A stretch of DNA of 64,000 nt, from assembly GCA_038087875.1 (NCBI GenBank), contig CM075987.1, positions 24,120,001-24,184,000 of the forward strand, read 5' to 3'. The notes under the pieces were generated by a model. It was not told the DNA's origin and made no database searches. It was given only the letters and a program-made list of their open reading frames with translations. A program made the translations under genes and the position numbers. Positions 1,658 through 52,721 of the stretch are shown one piece after another (the first letter of the stretch is position 1; each line of letters starts with the position of its first letter). The DNA comes from Malacoraja senta. Taxonomy: Eukaryota.

Positions 1658-1709
1658 GGGGTCAAGGTAAGAGCGTTCACTTCACAGCCCTGTTTCCACC
1701 AATCTTTCC
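1658..1709 (+). ncRNA. Minimal HDV-like (CPEB3-like) ribozyme candidate
   Basis: P1 GGGGTC/AGCCCT, P2 GGTAAGA/TCTTTCC, P3 GCG/CAC, L3 TTCACTT, GT, short linker, C-CAA joiner. Confidence 0.55.
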
Positions 1710-1832
1710 GCCACCACACACAAGCACAAGAAGCGACAAGACAGACACCATTGTATGCAGATGCCGAGAAGTGTGTTCATCTCCGGATGAACAACTTCTA
1801 ATCTTGTGTGTGTGGACTCGATAAGAAGAAGA
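1658..1832 (+). mobile_element. Short ribozyme-headed retroposon, family A copy 1
   Basis: Imperfect TSD TGGTATTAAATGT / TGGTACTAAAGT; ends in ATAAGAAGAAGA; second copy on minus strand at 27079-27260. Confidence 0.8.
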
Positions 1833-5281: not shown

Positions 5282-5306
5282 TCGCACTCGCACTCGCACT
5301 CGGACT

Positions 5307-5352
<46 letters not shown>

Positions 5353-5400
5353 AATATATATGTGAGTGTGAGTGTGAGTGTGAGTGTGAGTGTGAGTGTG

Positions 5401-5481
<81 letters not shown>

Positions 5482-5505
5482 ATAAATATATATATATATA
5501 TACAC
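5251..5505. repeat. Compound microsatellite (CA)n-(CTCGCA)n-(CA)n-(AT)n-(GTGAGT)n-(GT)n-(AT)n
   Basis: Directly visible. Confidence 0.95.
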
Positions 5506-5551
5506 ATAAAAACAATCAATAATAGTGTAAAAAGACAAAACCAATGCCCCC

Positions 5552-7496: not shown

Positions 7497-7660
7497 ATGT
7501 GTGTGTGTGTGTGTGTGCGTGTGTGTTTGTGTGTGTGTGCGTGTGTTTGTGTGTGTGTGTGTGTGCGTGCGTGTGTGTGTGCGTGTGAGTTTGTGTGTGT
7601 GTGCGTGTGTTTGTGTGTGTGTGTGTGTGTGCGTGCGCGTGTGTGTGTGTACGTATGTAT
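7284..7660. repeat. Degenerate (GT)n microsatellite
   Basis: Directly visible. Confidence 0.95.
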
Positions 7661-7674
7661 TTGCATGAGCACGT

Positions 7675-7940
7675 AAAACAGGCGTGAAAACAGGCCCTTC
7701 GGCCCACCGAGTCCGCACCGACCATTGATCACCCGTAAACTAGTTCTATTTTACACACGAGGAATTTACAGATGCCAATTAACCTACAAAAGTGCACGTC
7801 TTTAGAATGTGGGAGGAAACCAGAGCACTTGGAGAAAGCCCATGTAATCACAGGGAGCACGTACAAACTCTGTACAGACAGCATCCATGGTCAGGATGGA
7901 AACCGGATCTCTGGCGCAGTAAGGCAGCAACTCTACCGAT
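7675..7940 (-). mobile_element. V-SINE
   Basis: Reverse complement of SINE consensus (AAACAGGCCCTTCGGCCCAC..AAGGCAGCAACTCTACCG). Confidence 0.8.
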
Positions 7941-26600: not shown

Positions 26601-27078
26601 ACTGGCCCCCCTTCATCATGTATCTGTACACTGTGGATGGCTTGATTGTAATCATTTATTGTCTTTCTGCTGAGTGGTTAGCACGCAACAAAAGCATTAC
26701 CTCAGTACACGTGACAATAAACTCAACTCAAATCAACTGGCTGAGTTACTCCAGCACTTTGTGTCCTTTTCGTAAACCAGCATCTGCAGTTCCTTGTTTC
26801 TACCTCGGAGATATCATTGAGCTTGTATGAATCATCTTATTTTTCCTCCATAATATTTCAAGTCAAAAGTTGATTTACTAGAAAAAGCCAGAAAAAGAAG
26901 ATAAACTGGAAAAGAATTGTTCAAATAAGTTGTGCAATTATTAGAAAAATTATAATAATCATGTTTGACTAAAATGTCGATTTGCTTGAAAATCTGGTTT
27001 AGCATAAAAAAAAAGCCATAGAAGCTAGGAACAGGAACAGGGCAGTTGAACATTTGACCCTGGTTCTCTGATCAATAT

Positions 27079-27260
27079 TCTTCTTCTTATCGAGTCCACA
27101 CACAAGATTAGAAGTAGTTCAGCCAGAGCTGAACACACTTCTCGGCATCTGCGTACAATGGTGTCTGTTTTGCGCTTCTTGTGCTTCTTGTGCGAGGTGG
27201 TGGAAAGATTGGTGGAAACAGGGCCGTGACGTGAACGCTCTTTCCTTGACCCCCCCCCCC
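27079..27260 (-). mobile_element. Short ribozyme-headed retroposon, family A copy 2
   Basis: Perfect 11-bp TSD CTGATCAATAT (27068-78, 27261-71); reverse-complement match to 1658-1832. Confidence 0.85.
27202..27253 (-). ncRNA. Minimal HDV-like (CPEB3-like) ribozyme candidate
   Basis: Minus strand GGGGTC AA GGAAAGA GCG TTCACGT CAC GGCCCT GT TTCCAC CAA TCTTTCC; P2 is a perfect 7 bp. Confidence 0.65.
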
Positions 27261-27753
27261 CTGATCAATATGACAATGACCAATTTTACTTTGGAGTCAC
27301 GTTAGTGACTACGTGAAGAAGACCCGTCAGGGCGCATGCGCATCATTACGTCTGACGCATTGGCGCCCGGCAGCAAGAAGACGGAGCTCCTCCTGCAGGT
27401 GAGTAGTTTAGAGCTCCACCAAAGTCGGGGAGACTTTGGAGGAGTTAGTAAAAAGTAGAAAAATTGTTGCTGTATGTTTTTCCCCACAATACAGGAACAA
27501 GGAAAAAATTATCAAGGTGCAGGCGTGCTACGGACAAGGAGAGAGAGAGCTGCGGGAGCGCAGTCTCTGAAAGGCAGCCTGTCACCTCTGGGGAGTCGCA
27601 AGCCGGTAGCGGTGCGGCGACAGACTTGGCACTCCCAAGTGCCCAGCCGGGTACACAGCCAACGCCATTCGGGCATTAGGCATAAGCCAAGTCTGTCAGG
27701 CCCATTGACTCCACAGAGTCGGGCCAGGAGAGTCCCGTACGGGACAGGATACC

Positions 27754-41440: not shown

Positions 41441-42778
41441 CTACTGAAAGCACAACAGGCCAAATAGCATCAGTCTATCCATGGTCCTCCTGACCAGAAT
41501 TTATATTCCAAATATTTAGTCTCTAAGCCGATACCAGATTGAGTTTAAAGCAATAGCGTTGCAGGAGGTTAAGGCATTACATGGTTCAGTATGTTTAGCA
41601 TCGTCTTTTTGTTTTTCAATAGAATACTGTCTGCTCTCAATTATTTTCTATCTTAATGCAGACTCACAGAAGGAATACCTTTTAGCAAGTGAATTATTTA
41701 TATGTTGCTGGGAATTTTGGCAAGTGCACAGTTCCACTTTCAGTATTACTGTAAGTGCCACACCGATATTTTACACAAATCAACCTGTTTTCAGTGCCAG
41801 CAAACATCATAATTAACTACGTGCCATTTAGTGCATTTGGGAAAATATTGCTGTTCTGGTAAAATGGTTAGTTGCTGCCTTCAGTTACAGAATGTTCTAA
41901 TTAATTATAGCCTTGAGTGCCGATATTTCAGAGAGATAATTGAAGTCTTTCTTAAATGTTTCCTGAATGTACAGAAGAACTTCCTGAGTATAATTGCTAT
42001 TGTTGATATTTGGCTCAGTCCCGATCCCGGATCATATACCCACATTTCATGAAACGTCTTGTTTCCAATAAGTAACAGTGAGACTCAAAAGAGTCGTGCA
42101 CAACTTTTTCTAATAGAGGCAGAAATGTTATATTGTTATAATAGACCATACAAGAAGCTAACTTGATGACAAAGCATCTATGTTAAGTCATTGCCTGGGC
42201 TCAGCTTAAGTGCATTCTGCGTGCAGCAAGTTATGAAATCAATGCAAACTGAATGTTCCAGATACTGTACATAGAAGCTGAAAGAAGCTTAGTGCTATTT
42301 ACAAATCGAAGTTAAAACTCTTGGCATTAATTCATCAAGGTATTTTCAGGTCATCTCTGATTATCAATGGCCCTCAACAATGGCCCTCAATTGCTCACTT
42401 CTTCCTACTTATAGTTTGAAAGATTCTGTAACTTTTCTCGTAATTGCATTTGACTTCAAACAGGTTGTTCCTAGATTGCGCCCAATCTAGAAAGATTTGC
42501 ATTCGTAAAGCATCTTCCGTAATCAAAATGCTTCATAATCAATGACGTACTTTGAGGACGCAAGGAACTGCAGATGCTTGAATCCTGAGCAAAGCACAAA
42601 GTGCTGGAGGACTCAGCGGGTCAAACAGCATCTGTGGAAAGAATGAACAGGTGACGTTTCGGGTCGGTACGCTTCTTCTGACTGATGGAGTGGGGGGGGG
42701 TGGGGAGAAAGTTGGAAAAGAGATGTAGAGGCAACGCAAAGAGTAGAAGCAGGAACAGGTCACTTCGCCCCGCAAGAC

Positions 42779-50985: not shown

Positions 50986-51863
50986 ATTTGGCGGCAATTG
51001 GGAGCAACCTTGCGTCCTTTTCATTCTGGTTTCCAAGTGCAGTGGCATTTTGCAGCGGCATTTTGCTGCGATGACAAAACGTTCATCCTGCTGGTCATGC
51101 ACTGGATGTCGCTTTGACACGGTAATACAAGGAACCGCAAATGCTGGAATTCTGAGTTAAAAACAGAACGTTAGAGCAATTCAGCAGGTCAGGCCACATC
51201 TGTGGAGGGAATGGACAGGTGAAGTTTCGGTTCGGGGTAGACAAAAATGCTGGAGAAACTCAGCGGGTGAGGCAGCATCTATGGAGCAAAGGAATAGGTG
51301 ACGTTTTGGGTCGAGACCCTTCTTCAGACTGATGTGGAGGTGGTGGGGGGGGGGGGGGGGGAAGAAGAAAGGAAGAGGCTTCAGGGTGTTTCTGCAAGGG
51401 ACCCGTTACAACCATCTCGGCAGGTAAGTGAAGAAGGGAAAATAAAATTACTGTGCAACTTAAAATTTTCAGGACTAGGAACGAGAGATTTCTGTATTTA
51501 ATGGTATCAAGGGGTATGGTGGAAAAAGGCAGCCCCATGGGTAAAGGAACAAATTAATTATTGCGGAACATGTTCGAGAGGCTGTGCCCATCTCCTCTCT
51601 TTGCATTCAGCTGTGAATTACCTGGACCGGTTGCTGTTTCAAGCACATGAATGGCTGTGGAAACCTCACTGGTAATAAACAGTACATTCAATTTGAAGCA
51701 ATCACTGTCCCAATGGATCATCAGAGTCCTTGGTTGAAGATGCGGGATATTTTAATATTTTTAGTTTAGTTTTTAGTTTAGTTTAGAGATGCAGTGGGGA
51801 AACAGGCCCTTCCCCCCACCGAGTCGGCAGCGACCAGCGATCCCCGCGCATTAACACCACCCT

Positions 51864-51932
51864 GGCCCCATAGCAGAAGCGTCCACGTCGCTGGGGGCTG
51901 GAAACTGGAAGTATCCCGAGCTAATTCTGCTA
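51864..51932 (+). ncRNA. HDV-like (CPEB3-like) self-cleaving ribozyme candidate
   Basis: P1 GGCCCC/GGGGCT with G1.U wobble, P2 TAGCAGAA/TTCTGCTA (8/8), P3 GCG/CGC, L3 TCCACGT, P1.1 CC/GG, P4 GGA-AGTA-TCC, J4/2 CTAA. Confidence 0.8.
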
Positions 51933-52060
51933 CCACCGTCATCTATTGCGACAAGTGATGGCTCCCGCATTGATTGTCGCCGGAAGTTTGCGTCCTTTTC
52001 TGGACGGACGATGACAGCGATGTCAACATTTGAAACATGGAAGATCGACACGGAAGAAGA
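51864..52060 (+). mobile_element. Short ribozyme-headed retroposon, family B
   Basis: TSD ACACCACCCT / ACTCCACCCT; ends in CGGAAGAAGA; inserted antisense in a V-SINE. Confidence 0.8.
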
Positions 52061-52721
52061 ACTCCACCCTACACACACACGAGGGACAATTTTACATTTA
52101 TACCCGTCCAATTAACCTACAAACCTGCACGTCTTTGGAGTGTGGGAGGAAACCGATGATCTCGGAGAAAACCCACGCAGGTCACGGGGGGGGGGAGCGT
52201 ACAAACTCCGTACAGACAGCACCCGTTGTCAGGATCGAACCCGGGTCTCTAGCTCTGTAAGGCAGTAGTTCTACCACTGCACCACCGTGCCGTACATCCC
52301 ATTTGTACTCAACTACACAATTATCACAGAAAGCAATAAACTTTTGAATCAGAGTTCTTGAATTTCCTTATCGTCTTGACGATGGAATTATGAGATTAGC
52401 AGATATTATAGTGTTGCCATATAAATCCTTAAACTTTGAAACCAGGCTAATATTTGAGAGCTTAACTATATGGCCTCAGCGGCATGTTGCAAATGATCCT
52501 CATTTCTAGTGAGCCTGTACGATTCCTGGACCAGCTGCATTTAGCTCGTTGCACATTGCAATGAATAAAAGAACGTTATTTAACATTTAAACATAAACTC
52601 AAAGAGCACCTCATCTTCCAACTTCCTCGCAAACATTATCAAAAGCAGAAAGTCTGAAATACTAATTATTTATGAGAGCTTTTAGATGTTTTAGATACCT
52701 TTTAAAACTTAAAAGTAGAAT

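What the first reader, a model, noticed from the sequence alone, without database searches (positions are those of the whole stretch)
27079..27260. Second family: minimal, P4-less HDV-like ribozyme with CPEB3-type L3 (minus strand)
Seen: the minus strand reads GGGGTC AA GGAAAGA GCG TTCACGT CAC GGCCCT GT TTCCAC CAA TCTTTCC. P1 is 6 bp with G.U, P2 is a perfect 7 bp, and L3 is TTCACGT. The GT after P1 matches human CPEB3 as I recall it (single-pair P1.1), and P4 is reduced to a few nucleotides. An 11-bp perfect TSD brackets the element. The 5' end carries extra Gs (about 11 against 4 in the other copy), possibly untemplated addition or slippage. Caveat: P3 has a C.A mismatch (GCG/CAC) in both copies.
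Basis: partly seen in the sequence, partly recalled or inferred. Interest (0 to 1): 0.8.

Follow-up and report, generated by a model that had tools for sequence, protein, structure and literature searches.

The report
Self-cutting RNA heads short retroelement
A short mobile element present in over a thousand copies in this genome begins with a stripped-down HDV/CPEB3-type self-cleaving RNA fold that most likely cuts the element's transcript free at its exact first base; the copy in this window is a decayed one.

Summary
Window 27079-27260 (-) is one copy of a ~175-nt non-coding, SINE-like retroelement. It has 11-bp target-site duplications and a GATAAGAAGAAGA tail.

- **Abundance:** at least 998 genome copies carry an exact 20-mer of its head, and 255 carry an identical 52-nt head.
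- **Fold:** the first 52 nt match a minimal HDV-like ribozyme in register: P1 6 bp with a G1·U wobble, P2 7 bp, P3 3 bp, L3 UUCACGU, a one-pair P1.1, and a 6-nt linker in place of P4, followed by CCAA.
- **P3 mismatch:** the C·A mismatch is CpG decay of individual copies. 23 of 30 sampled copies have perfect GCG/CGC.
- **Extra Gs:** they are private to this copy. 81 of 100 sampled 5' junctions start with exactly GGGG.
- **Covariation:** a sister family in the same window (51864-52061, with P4) differs by six compensatory pairs in P1 and P2.
- **Rfam:** CPEB3 is the only model that matches. Intact copies score 33-34 bits against a threshold of 35.

Best reading: self-cleavage of read-through transcripts defines the element's 5' end, and a LINE copies the RNA in trans. 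Cleavage is untested, no RNA data were available, and the LINE partner was not found. I rate it a new variant of a known kind.

The parts
27261..27271 (.). Target-site duplication, 5' side of the element (ATATTGATCAG)
   Evidence: Read directly. The script found an 11/11 match directly abutting the element.
27254..27260 (-). Seven extra G residues upstream of the family's normal first base. They are private to this locus.
   Evidence: The family starts with GGGG in 81 of the first 100 junctions listed. Contigs of other runs diverge at 27253. The duplicate of this locus on an unplaced contig (L002) has one G fewer.
27202..27253 (-). 52-nt P4-less HDV-like ribozyme motif. Coordinates: P1 27248-27253 with 27220-27225; J1/2 27246-27247; P2 27239-27245 with 27202-27208; P3 27236-27238 with 27226-27228 (the A at 27227 is the decayed base); L3 27229-27235; P1.1 is C at 27233 with G at 27219; linker 27213-27218; J4/2 CCAA 27209-27212, with the candidate catalytic C at 27212. 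Predicted cleavage is 5' of 27253.
27092..27201 (-). Non-coding body. It holds the ACCACC motif (27196-27201), which is also found after the ribozyme of the sister families, a long-range stem, and the hairpin TTCAGC-TCTG-GCTGAA (27118-27133).
   Evidence: An intact copy folds at -53.6 kcal/mol, z -2.23. The ACCACC motif is seen.
27079..27091 (-). 3' tail GATAAGAAGAAGA, a (GAA)n-type tail with no poly(A)
   Evidence: The sister family has the same kind of tail.
27068..27078 (.). Target-site duplication, 3' side (ATATTGATCAG)
1658..1832 (+). Second, older copy of the same family. It has 4 Gs, three changes in the 50-nt head, and imperfect 12-13 bp duplications at 1645-1657 and 1833-1844.
   Evidence: It is 89.9% identical to an intact copy. 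Rfam CPEB3 scores it 17.5 bits.
51864..52061 (+). Copy of the sister ('first') family: a ~194-nt element with a P4-bearing CPEB3-like ribozyme and the same kind of tail. It serves here as the covariation partner.
   Evidence: Rfam CPEB3 27.7 bits. The genome search gave 2013 first-look candidates.

Best explanation
The locus is a dead copy of a young, high-copy, non-coding SINE-like non-LTR retroelement. The first 52 nt of its RNA are a minimal HDV-like self-cleaving ribozyme: a double pseudoknot of P1, P1.1, P2 and P3, with P4 replaced by a 6-nt linker.

Proposed mechanism:
1. A source copy has no promoter of its own and is transcribed as part of a longer host or read-through transcript (inferred).
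2. The ribozyme folds and cleaves immediately 5' of G1. The upstream RNA is discarded and the whole ribozyme stays on the element (inferred from the family anatomy and from what is established for R2, L1Tc/NARTc and RTE ribozymes).
3. A LINE-encoded endonuclease/reverse transcriptase acting in trans starts target-primed reverse transcription on the (GAA)n tail next to the 3' stem-loop. It copies the RNA to its 5' end and leaves 7-13 bp target-site duplications. The footprint is shown; the enzyme is not identified.

In this copy, seven extra Gs were added at the 5' junction or arose by slippage. A CpG-to-CpA change has since broken the middle pair of P3.
For: **Family and retrotransposition footprint**
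- The genome search gave 2315 first-look candidates. The 40 that were scored are 95-100% identical to the window copy.
- An exact 20-mer of the head occurs 998 times, against 0 for the reversed control.
- The exact 52-mer occurs 255 times, against 0 for the control.
- The script found duplications of 7-13 bp (median 10) in 26 of 30 loci, which is 23 of 27 independent insertions.
- Mean pairwise identity of 27 copies is 97%.

**The 5' end coincides with the predicted cleavage site**
- Of the first 100 junctions listed, 81 have exactly GGGG before TC and unrelated sequence upstream (counted by eye).
- Contigs of four other runs lose likeness at 27253 and at 27078/27079.

**Fold**
- On 26 natural copies (13 of each family), 96.6% of pair cells are standard pairs, against 30-54% when the partners are slid by 1-3 columns.
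- Six pairs change on both sides: 2 in P1 and 4 in P2.
- G1·U is present in 20 of 20 distinct rows, and the P1.1 C-G pair in 20 of 20.
- The J4/2 C is invariant.
- A strict descriptor hits 20 of 30 family loci and 12 of 30 sister-family loci, and nothing else in 289 kb.

**Rfam**
- CPEB3 is the only model that matches: 34.4, 33.1 and 27.9 bits on intact copies, E 3e-6 to 4e-4.

**No alternative way to define the 5' end was seen**
- No tRNA-like head is present.
- No A box or B box with up to 2 mismatches lies inside the element.

**P4-less HDV-like ribozymes can be active**
- A paper on phage theta ribozymes describes minimal forms lacking P4 that cleave in vitro. It prints one with the same layout: P3 GCG/CGC, a 7-nt L3, a 7-nt linker, then CUAA (PMC10879173, passages).
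Against: - No cleavage assay and no RNA evidence exist. No listed run was on record as RNA, and only contigs could be laid.
- No Rfam model reaches its gathering score: the best is 34.4 against 35, and there were 0 hits at gathering thresholds in the window. No other HDV-type Rfam model appears at E up to 10.
- Nested folding gives no signal: z +0.5 to +0.7.
- A competing nested fold of -10.6 kcal/mol pairs the 5' strand of P2 with the linker UUUCC.
- The covariation rests on essentially one contrast between two families, plus a few copies of a third.
- The window copy itself has a broken P3.
- The autonomous partner was not found.
- Nothing is known here about how source copies are transcribed.
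Confidence: 0.72

Rival explanations
1. The 5' end is set by transcription initiation at G1, either from an internal promoter that overlaps the head (as in L1Tc Pr77, which is both promoter and ribozyme) or from an external promoter at one or a few master loci. On this reading the HDV-like fold is auxiliary or no longer catalytic.
For: - The first 77 nt of L1Tc/NARTc are reported to be both an internal promoter and an HDV-like ribozyme (PMC3383444, abstract in the listing).
- The element starts with a G run, as many transcripts do.
- No cleavage data exist here.
Against: - No A box or B box with up to 2 mismatches and no tRNA-like head lies in the element.
- A promoter does not explain six compensatory pair changes that keep P1 and P2 between families, nor the invariant G1·U and J4/2 C.
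- An external promoter would not travel with the copies, yet two or three families keep the same architecture at their exact 5' ends.
Confidence: 0.12
2. The fold is real, but after P4 was lost it no longer cleaves. It persists as a structured 5' cap-like element that protects the RNA or binds the reverse transcriptase.
For: - R2 protein is reported to bind a pseudoknot within the R2 ribozyme region (PMC6765202, passage).
- A competing nested fold exists.
- The family scores below Rfam thresholds.
Against: - Without cleavage, copies would carry 5' flank from their source loci. Instead the sequence upstream of GGGG differs in every junction listed, apart from a few duplicated loci.
- The family amplified to over a thousand copies after P4 was lost, and kept a precise 5' end.
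- P4-less forms are active in other systems (PMC10879173).
Confidence: 0.08
3. The motif is a chance resemblance in a repeat and has no structural meaning.
For: All Rfam scores are below threshold. Nested-fold z-scores are not significant.
Against: - The descriptor gives 0 hits in 20 shuffles.
- Covariation and slid-partner controls favour the fold.
- The Rfam E-value is 3e-6 on intact copies.
- Three families carry the motif at the same place in the element.
Confidence: 0.02

Closest known systems
HDV-like ribozymes at the 5' ends of non-LTR retrotransposons and their non-autonomous derivatives (R2 and its SIDEs, L1Tc/NARTc, RTE, Baggins)
   Same: - The ribozyme sits at the exact 5' end of the element, and cleavage upstream of G1 keeps the ribozyme on the released RNA.
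- The elements depend on co-transcription.
- Short non-coding derivatives are mobilised in trans.
- A review notes hundreds of intergenic copies with conserved downstream and varying upstream sequence, and states that some non-autonomous SINEs use HDV-like ribozymes (PMC6765202, passages; PMC3414825 and PMC3383444, abstracts).
   Different: - P4 is absent here.
- Insertions are dispersed, with 7-13 bp duplications and a (GAA)n tail. They are not rDNA-specific like R2.
- No autonomous element carrying the same head was found.
- The core sequence is of the CPEB3 type.
Minimal (P4-less) HDV-like ribozymes: the metagenomic drz-Mtgn set and phage theta ribozymes
   Same: - Same reduced architecture of about 50 nt: P1, P2, a 3-bp P3 of GCG/CGC, a 7-nt L3, a short single-stranded linker in place of P4, then C-N-A-A before the 3' strand of P2.
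- Members of that class are reported active in vitro (PMC10879173, passages).
   Different: - Those are described from gut-phage genomes, often just downstream of tRNA genes, and the paper calls them so far limited to such phages.
- This one heads a eukaryotic retroelement with over a thousand copies.
- L3 is UUCACGU here, against UUCCCGU in the printed example.
Mammalian CPEB3 ribozyme (Rfam RF00622)
   Same: - It is the only Rfam model that matches.
- Intact copies share a run of 19 identical bases with the Rfam consensus: the last base of the 5' strand of P2, then P3, L3, P3', and five bases of the 3' strand of P1. GU follows P1 in both, which fits a single-pair P1.1.
- The sister families also share the P2 sequence or near-identical versions of it.
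   Different: - Scores are below the gathering score.
- There is no P4.
- P1 and P2 sequences differ in this family.
- It is a dispersed repeat, not a single conserved intronic locus.
- The same P3/L3 type also occurs in a phage minimal ribozyme, so the likeness may be convergent.
Stringent-type SINE/LINE pairs, and Rex3/RTE-type LINE tails
   Same: - A 3' stem-loop is followed by a short tandem-repeat tail rather than poly(A), and the element is flanked by target-site duplications.
- Rex3 is described as ending in a stop codon, then (GAA)2, then GATG repeats (PMC6274825, passage).
- This element ends TAA GAA GAA GA.
   Different: - There is no Pol III (tRNA, 5S or 7SL) head.
- No GATG repeats are present.
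- A partner LINE with a matching 3' end was not found.

Membership tests
HDV-like self-cleaving ribozymes (general class) | Nested double pseudoknot: P1, P2, P3 and P1.1 complementary in the canonical order | tested here: met
   96.6% of 388 pair cells are standard pairs on 26 copies, against 30-54% when partners are slid. The descriptor hits intact copies only.
HDV-like self-cleaving ribozymes (general class) | G1·U wobble closing P1 at the cleavage site | tested here: met
   G·U in 20 of 20 distinct rows.
HDV-like self-cleaving ribozymes (general class) | Cytosine in J4/2 just upstream of the 3' strand of P2 (the catalytic C) | tested here: met
   C42 followed by CAA is invariant in the 26 aligned copies. 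Its catalytic role is not testable here.
HDV-like self-cleaving ribozymes (general class) | P4 helix | tested here: not met
   Only 6 nt (UUUCCA) lie between the P1.1 G and the J4/2 C. P4 is dispensable in the minimal subclass (PMC10879173).
HDV-like self-cleaving ribozymes (general class) | Covariation supporting the helices | tested here: met
   Six pairs change on both sides, 2 in P1 and 4 in P2. A third family adds a C-G to U-A change in P2. This amounts to few independent lineages.
HDV-like self-cleaving ribozymes (general class) | Site-specific self-cleavage 5' of G1 that depends on the J4/2 C | not testable with these tools
   Indirect evidence only: 81 of 100 listed junctions start at G1.
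Minimal (P4-less) HDV-like ribozymes | P4 replaced by a short linker, with all other elements kept, in about 50 nt | tested here: met
   52 nt with a 6-nt linker. The layout is the same as the example printed in PMC10879173.
Theta ribozymes (phage subclass) | Located in a Caudoviricetes genome, typically just 3' of a tRNA gene | tested here: not met
   It is a dispersed repeat in a 1.94-Gb eukaryotic assembly. No tRNA adjoins it.
CPEB3 ribozyme (RF00622) | Covariance-model score at or above the gathering score of 35 bits | tested here: not met
   22.4 bits for the window copy, and 27.9-34.4 bits for intact copies.
CPEB3 ribozyme (RF00622) | Single conserved locus in an intron of the CPEB3 gene | tested here: not met
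   At least 998 dispersed copies. The gene context of this copy was not examined.
CPEB3 ribozyme (RF00622) | Characteristic P3/L3 sequence, with GU after P1 | tested here: met
   Identical to the Rfam consensus in intact copies.
SINE-like non-autonomous non-LTR retroelement | Short, non-coding, high copy number, target-site duplications, defined 3' tail | tested here: met
   The element is 175 nt, too short to encode the proteins needed for retrotransposition (read directly).
SINE-like non-autonomous non-LTR retroelement | Internal Pol III promoter (tRNA-, 5S- or 7SL-derived head) of canonical SINEs | tested here: not met
   No tRNA-like structure. No A box or B box with up to 2 mismatches in the element. 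5S and 7SL likeness: no Rfam hit at E up to 10.
SINE-like non-autonomous non-LTR retroelement | A partner LINE that shares the 3' end | tested here: inconclusive
   None found in five LINE regions or by three pattern searches that excluded SINE bases. The search was far from exhaustive: 159,857 RT candidates exist.

The most novel reading that the evidence does not exclude
The mammalian CPEB3 ribozyme, said to be unknown outside mammals, descends from this lineage of retroelement 5' ribozymes. At least three families in this genome carry its P3/L3 core. Two of them also carry its P2 or a near-identical version and a P4. They would supply the missing outgroup and show that the intronic ribozyme is an exapted retroelement head. 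The P4-less family would also be the first natural minimal HDV-like ribozyme with an identifiable job in an animal genome.
Probability: 0.25. Interest if true: 0.85.

Novelty: new variant of a known kind. Interest (0 to 1): 0.62.

Why it matters
HDV-like ribozymes that free retrotransposon RNA from co-transcripts are known. Two things here are not, as far as my searches of the held library show.

1. **A natural P4-less form at work in a eukaryotic mobile element.**
   - The family kept amplifying after P4 was lost. That is a natural experiment on the minimal catalytic core.
   - It also gives the minimal class a eukaryotic context. The class has so far been described from gut phages (PMC10879173).

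2. **A set of sister families whose cores are nearly identical to the CPEB3 ribozyme.**
   - The origin of the CPEB3 ribozyme is open because no outgroup is known (PMC8233481, passage).
   - If the likeness is homology, the question becomes directly testable by comparative genomics.

The 52-mer is also a compact, naturally validated candidate for ribozyme engineering.

Key older papers could not be read, and no supplementary files were opened. Prior description elsewhere therefore cannot be excluded.

Tried and rejected
**RNA evidence**
- No RNA holder was listed.
- The four runs laid were contigs only, and two of the three guessed to be RNA were flagged as probably DNA. Nothing can be said about expression, strand or cleavage.

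**Partner LINE: not found**
- The RT family search gave 159,857 candidates and its loci were not issued.
- One LINE with ORFs of 341 and 1271 aa (L091) shows no likeness to the element's ends. Neither do the 3' regions of four other RT-bearing LINEs (L096-L099).
- A 3'-end pattern that excluded SINE bases gave 501 hits. Those listed were almost all a sub-family of the sister element.
- The stricter version gave 22 hits. 21 have this family's body, and one shares only the last ~27 nt.
- The ribozyme end plus ACCACC, followed by non-SINE bases, gave 2 hits. Both are deleted copies of this family.

**Further families**
- The core preceded by a base other than A gave 62 hits (the reversed control gave 42). 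29 of the 30 examined are mutated copies of the two families.

**Other dead ends**
- Nested MFE folding is uninformative for a pseudoknot.
- Earlier findings of this scan returned nothing.
- The protein atlas call on the LINE ORF gave no useful taxon, so the organism's class was not established.
- The three papers I asked for by PMC id (PMC3308841, PMC3256349, PMC3159031), taken from a reference list as Ruminski 2011, Webb & Luptak 2011 and Webb 2009, are not held. I did not try Riccitelli 2014, which was seen only as a reference without a PMC id.

**Rejected readings**
- A tRNA-derived SINE head.
- The C·A mismatch in P3 as a family trait.
- The eleven Gs as a family trait.

Full report
**1. 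What is in the window**

The minus strand of 27079-27260 reads, from 5' to 3': eleven Gs, then TC AA GGAAAGA GCG TTCACGT CAC GGCCCT G TTTCCA CCAA TCTTTCC, then a 110-nt body, then the tail GATAAGAAGAAGA. A perfect 11-bp direct repeat, ATATTGATCAG, brackets it at 27261-27271 and 27068-27078. A second copy lies at 1658-1832 (+). It starts with four Gs and has three differences in the 50-nt head.

The head, allowing 3 mismatches, occurs twice in the window and never in 100 shuffles. A minimal-HDV descriptor that I wrote requires:
- P1 of 6 bp opening with G·U;
- J1/2 of 0-4 nt;
- P2 of 6-7 bp;
- P3 of 3 bp;
- a 7-nt L3 with C at its third position;
- a G after P1;
- a 3-30 nt linker, then C plus three bases, then the 3' strand of P2.

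With one P3 mismatch allowed, it hits only 27253-27202 (-) in the 64 kb and gives nothing in 20 shuffles.

**2. It is one copy of a large, young retroelement family**

The window lies in a 1.94-Gb assembly of 6182 contigs. A DNA search with the element found 2315 first-look candidates. The 40 that were scored are all 95-100% identical.

Counts from exact patterns:
- A 20-mer of the head (with one loosely specified base 15 nt upstream) occurs 998 times, against 0 for the reversed control.
- The full 52-nt head occurs unchanged 255 times, against 0.

In the 30 loci fetched:
- A script found target-site duplications of 7-13 bp (median 10) directly abutting the element in 26. That is 23 of 27 independent insertions, because three loci are duplicates of others.
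- Mean pairwise identity of 27 non-redundant copies is 97%. This sample is the set most similar to the window copy, so it is biased towards young, full-length members.

The element is about 175 nt, too short to encode the proteins needed for retrotransposition. It ends in a (GAA)n-type tail with no poly(A). Its body folds into a long stem enclosing a hairpin (-53.6 kcal/mol, z -2.23). Contigs of four other public runs, under two coded organism labels, match only between 27078/79 and 27253 and run on into unrelated sequence at both ends. This sets the family's borders independently.

**3.

*P3 mismatch.* The 3' strand of P3 is CGC in 23 of 30 loci, CAC in 6 (the window locus counted twice through its duplicate) and TGC in 1. 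In the laid contigs the base at 27227 is C on the plus strand in about nine-tenths of the summed depth. The C·A mismatch is therefore recurrent CpG decay of dead copies, and the family's P3 is a perfect GCG/CGC.

*Extra Gs.* I counted the first 100 junctions listed by eye:

| G run before TC | Junctions |
|---|---|
| exactly four Gs | 81 |
| five | 6 |
| six to eight | 3 |
| three | 4 |
| two, or a point-mutated run | 6 |

The seven additional Gs at 27254-27260 are private to this locus. Its duplicate on an unplaced contig has one G fewer, so the run length is itself unstable or uncertain. Extra 5' nucleotides of this kind are what one expects from reverse transcriptase reaching an RNA end, or from later slippage. 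I cannot tell which.

**4. The fold**

Numbering from G1 (27253):

| Element | Nucleotides | Sequence / note |
|---|---|---|
| P1 | 1-6 with 29-34 | GGGGUC/GGCCCU, wobbles at 1·34 and 5·30 |
| J1/2 | 7-8 | AA |
| P2 | 9-15 with 46-52 | GGAAAGA/UCUUUCC |
| P3 | 16-18 with 26-28 | GCG/CGC |
| L3 | 19-25 | UUCACGU |
| P1.1 | C21 with G35 | one pair |
| linker | 36-41 | UUUCCA, where P4 would be |
| J4/2 | 42-45 | CCAA, with C42 in the place of the catalytic cytosine |

Duplex energies are -8.1 kcal/mol for P1 and -7.4 for P2. The nested P1+P3 part evaluates to -9.5.

Ordinary nested folding cannot represent the pseudoknot. It gives no signal (z +0.5 to +0.7). Its best structure (-10.6) pairs the 5' strand of P2 with the linker UUUCC. 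I record this as a possible misfold.

**5. Covariation from a sister family in the same window**

Rfam's CPEB3 model also hits 51852-51931 (+) at 27.7 bits. It gave 2013 first-look candidates, has the same kind of tail and duplications, and has a real P4. Its majority reads GGCCCC AUA GCAGAA GCG UCCACGU CGC GGGGCU GG-P4-C UAA UUCUGC.

I aligned 13 natural copies of each family, which put the helices in register. Counting the pseudoknotted structure on that alignment gave:
- 96.6% of 388 cells are standard pairs, against 30-54% when the 3' partners are slid by 1-3 columns.
- Six pairs change on both sides, two in P1 and four in P2. One more changes on one side (C-G to U·G).
- G1·U is present in 20 of 20 distinct rows, and the P1.1 pair in 20 of 20.
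- The unpaired cells in P3 are decay.

The shuffle control for 'pairs with a change on both sides' is uninformative (433 of 500 shuffles reach six), because the two families are two blocks. In effect the evidence is one deep contrast with six compensated positions.

A third, rare and old family turned up in a search for the canonical CPEB3 core. It reads GUAGAA GCG UUCACGU CGC GACCCCU GU, then a P4 (CAAGUU...AACUUG), then C UAA UUCUAC, followed by UACCACC. This adds a C-G to U-A change in P2. All three families have ACCACC right after the ribozyme.

**6. How it most likely works**

*Shown:*
- the retrotransposition footprint;
- the precise and uniform 5' end;
- the conserved and covarying fold at that end;
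- no tRNA-like head, and no A box or B box with up to 2 mismatches inside the element.

*Inferred:* source copies are transcribed as part of longer RNAs. The ribozyme cuts 5' of G1 and so defines the element's first base while staying on it. A LINE enzyme then copies the RNA by target-primed reverse transcription from the tail.

This is the mechanism established for R2, L1Tc/NARTc and RTE elements. A review states that some non-autonomous SINEs use HDV-like ribozymes, and that hundreds of intergenic copies with conserved downstream and variable upstream sequence have been seen (PMC6765202, passages).

The main argument that the P4-less form is still active is indirect. Without cleavage, new copies would carry flank from their source locus. 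Yet the sequence upstream of GGGG differs in each junction listed, apart from a few duplicated loci, and the family reached over a thousand copies in its P4-less state.

Loss of P4 is compatible with catalysis. Minimal HDV-like ribozymes without P4 cleave in vitro. The example printed in that paper has the same layout: P3 GCG/CGC, a 7-nt L3, a 7-nt linker, then CUAA (PMC10879173, passages).

The window copy itself, with a broken P3 and extra Gs, is best regarded as dead.

**7. What I could not establish**

*Cleavage and expression.* No run on record as RNA held the stretch, and only contigs could be laid.

*The partner LINE.* It was not found among five LINE regions examined or by three pattern searches built to exclude the short elements. 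The last of these also shows that no longer element shares this head and then diverges right after ACCACC. The tail TAA-GAA-GAA-GA recalls the Rex3/RTE tail described as a stop codon, then (GAA)2, then GATG repeats (PMC6274825, passage). That is a lead only.

*The organism's class.* The genome has no match within one mismatch to a 25-base canonical CPEB3 core. That fits a non-mammal but does not prove it.

**8. Comparison with what is known, and novelty**

By function it belongs with the retrotransposon 5' HDV-like ribozymes. By architecture it belongs with the minimal P4-less class, which the paper read here describes as so far limited to gut phages (PMC10879173). By sequence its nearest relative in Rfam is the CPEB3 ribozyme:
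- Intact copies score 27.9-34.4 bits against a gathering score of 35.
- They share 19 consecutive bases with the consensus.

It is not a member of RF00622: the score is below threshold, there is no P4, and it is a dispersed repeat.

[quoted passage not shown] Three retroelement families with its core, two of them with its P2 or nearly so and a P4, are therefore a lead to its origin. But the same P3/L3 type occurs in a phage ribozyme, so convergence on a favoured core is a serious alternative. I put homology at about one in four.

In the held library:
- No paper contains the phrases 'CPEB3-like ribozyme(s)' or 'CPEB3 ribozyme-like'.
- The searches listed no P4-less example in a eukaryotic retroelement.
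- Three foundational papers were asked for by id and are not held. Riccitelli 2014 was seen only as a reference and was not tried. No supplementary files were opened.

**Verdict:** a real feature and a new variant of a known kind, of moderate to high interest.

Noticed in passing
window 51864-52061 (+): Sister family of ~194-nt elements with a P4-bearing CPEB3-like ribozyme head. P2 (GCAGAA/UUCUGC) and P3 are identical to the Rfam CPEB3 consensus, and L3 is UCCACGU. It gave 2013 first-look candidates and has at least two sub-families that differ near the 3' end. This copy carries a TG insertion between P3 and the 3' strand of P1, and sits inside another repeat.
   Followed up: partly
L092:1-361 (-) and L093:1-361 (+): A third, rare and decayed family with a CPEB3-like core: GUAGAA...UUCUAC as P2, L3 UUCACGU, and a 6-bp P4 stem CAAGUU/AACUUG, again followed by ACCACC. 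In layout it is the closest of the three to the mammalian ribozyme. Three genome hits share the same 25-mer.
   Followed up: partly
5' junctions of the family (listing; loci L004-L030): The base just before GGGG is T in 55 of the 81 junctions that have exactly four Gs (C in 15, A in 11). In the loci checked, this T belongs to the target-site duplication, and the target often continues with G. This points to a target preference or to microhomology joining at the 5' junction.
   Followed up: partly
window 27286-27365, 1560-1657, 52080-52290 and many other sites: A different, very abundant repeat flanks or hosts the ribozyme-headed copies. It contains ...CTCCAAAGACGT... and, in copies such as 1512-1522 and 52231-52241, a good B box (GGTTCGATCC). 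It looks like a tRNA-derived SINE. Its depth in the laid contigs is as high as that of the element studied.
   Followed up: no
L002 (unplaced contig C5796) against window 27068-27271: The whole locus, flanks included, is present a second time on an unplaced contig with 10 rather than 11 Gs. It is probably an uncollapsed haplotype or an assembly duplicate. L016/L019 and L020/L021 are similar duplicate pairs.
   Followed up: no
window 5304-5520 and 7545-7778: A cluster of below-threshold microRNA-family hits on both strands (mir-3149, mir-297, mir-1277 and others, 28-62 bits against thresholds of 75-100). They are most likely a palindromic or simple-repeat tract, not genes.
   Followed up: no
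window 41821-41914 (+): ARAGORN calls a 94-nt tRNA-Thr (GGU). This is unusually long, so it may be an intron-containing gene or a tRNA-derived repeat.
   Followed up: no
L091 (G000:C1:107522800-107530300, minus strand): A LINE with open frames of 341 and 1271 aa. The 1271-aa frame length recurs in about ten of the best RT matches, which suggests a recently active family. It is unrelated to the ends of the ribozyme-headed elements.
   Followed up: partly
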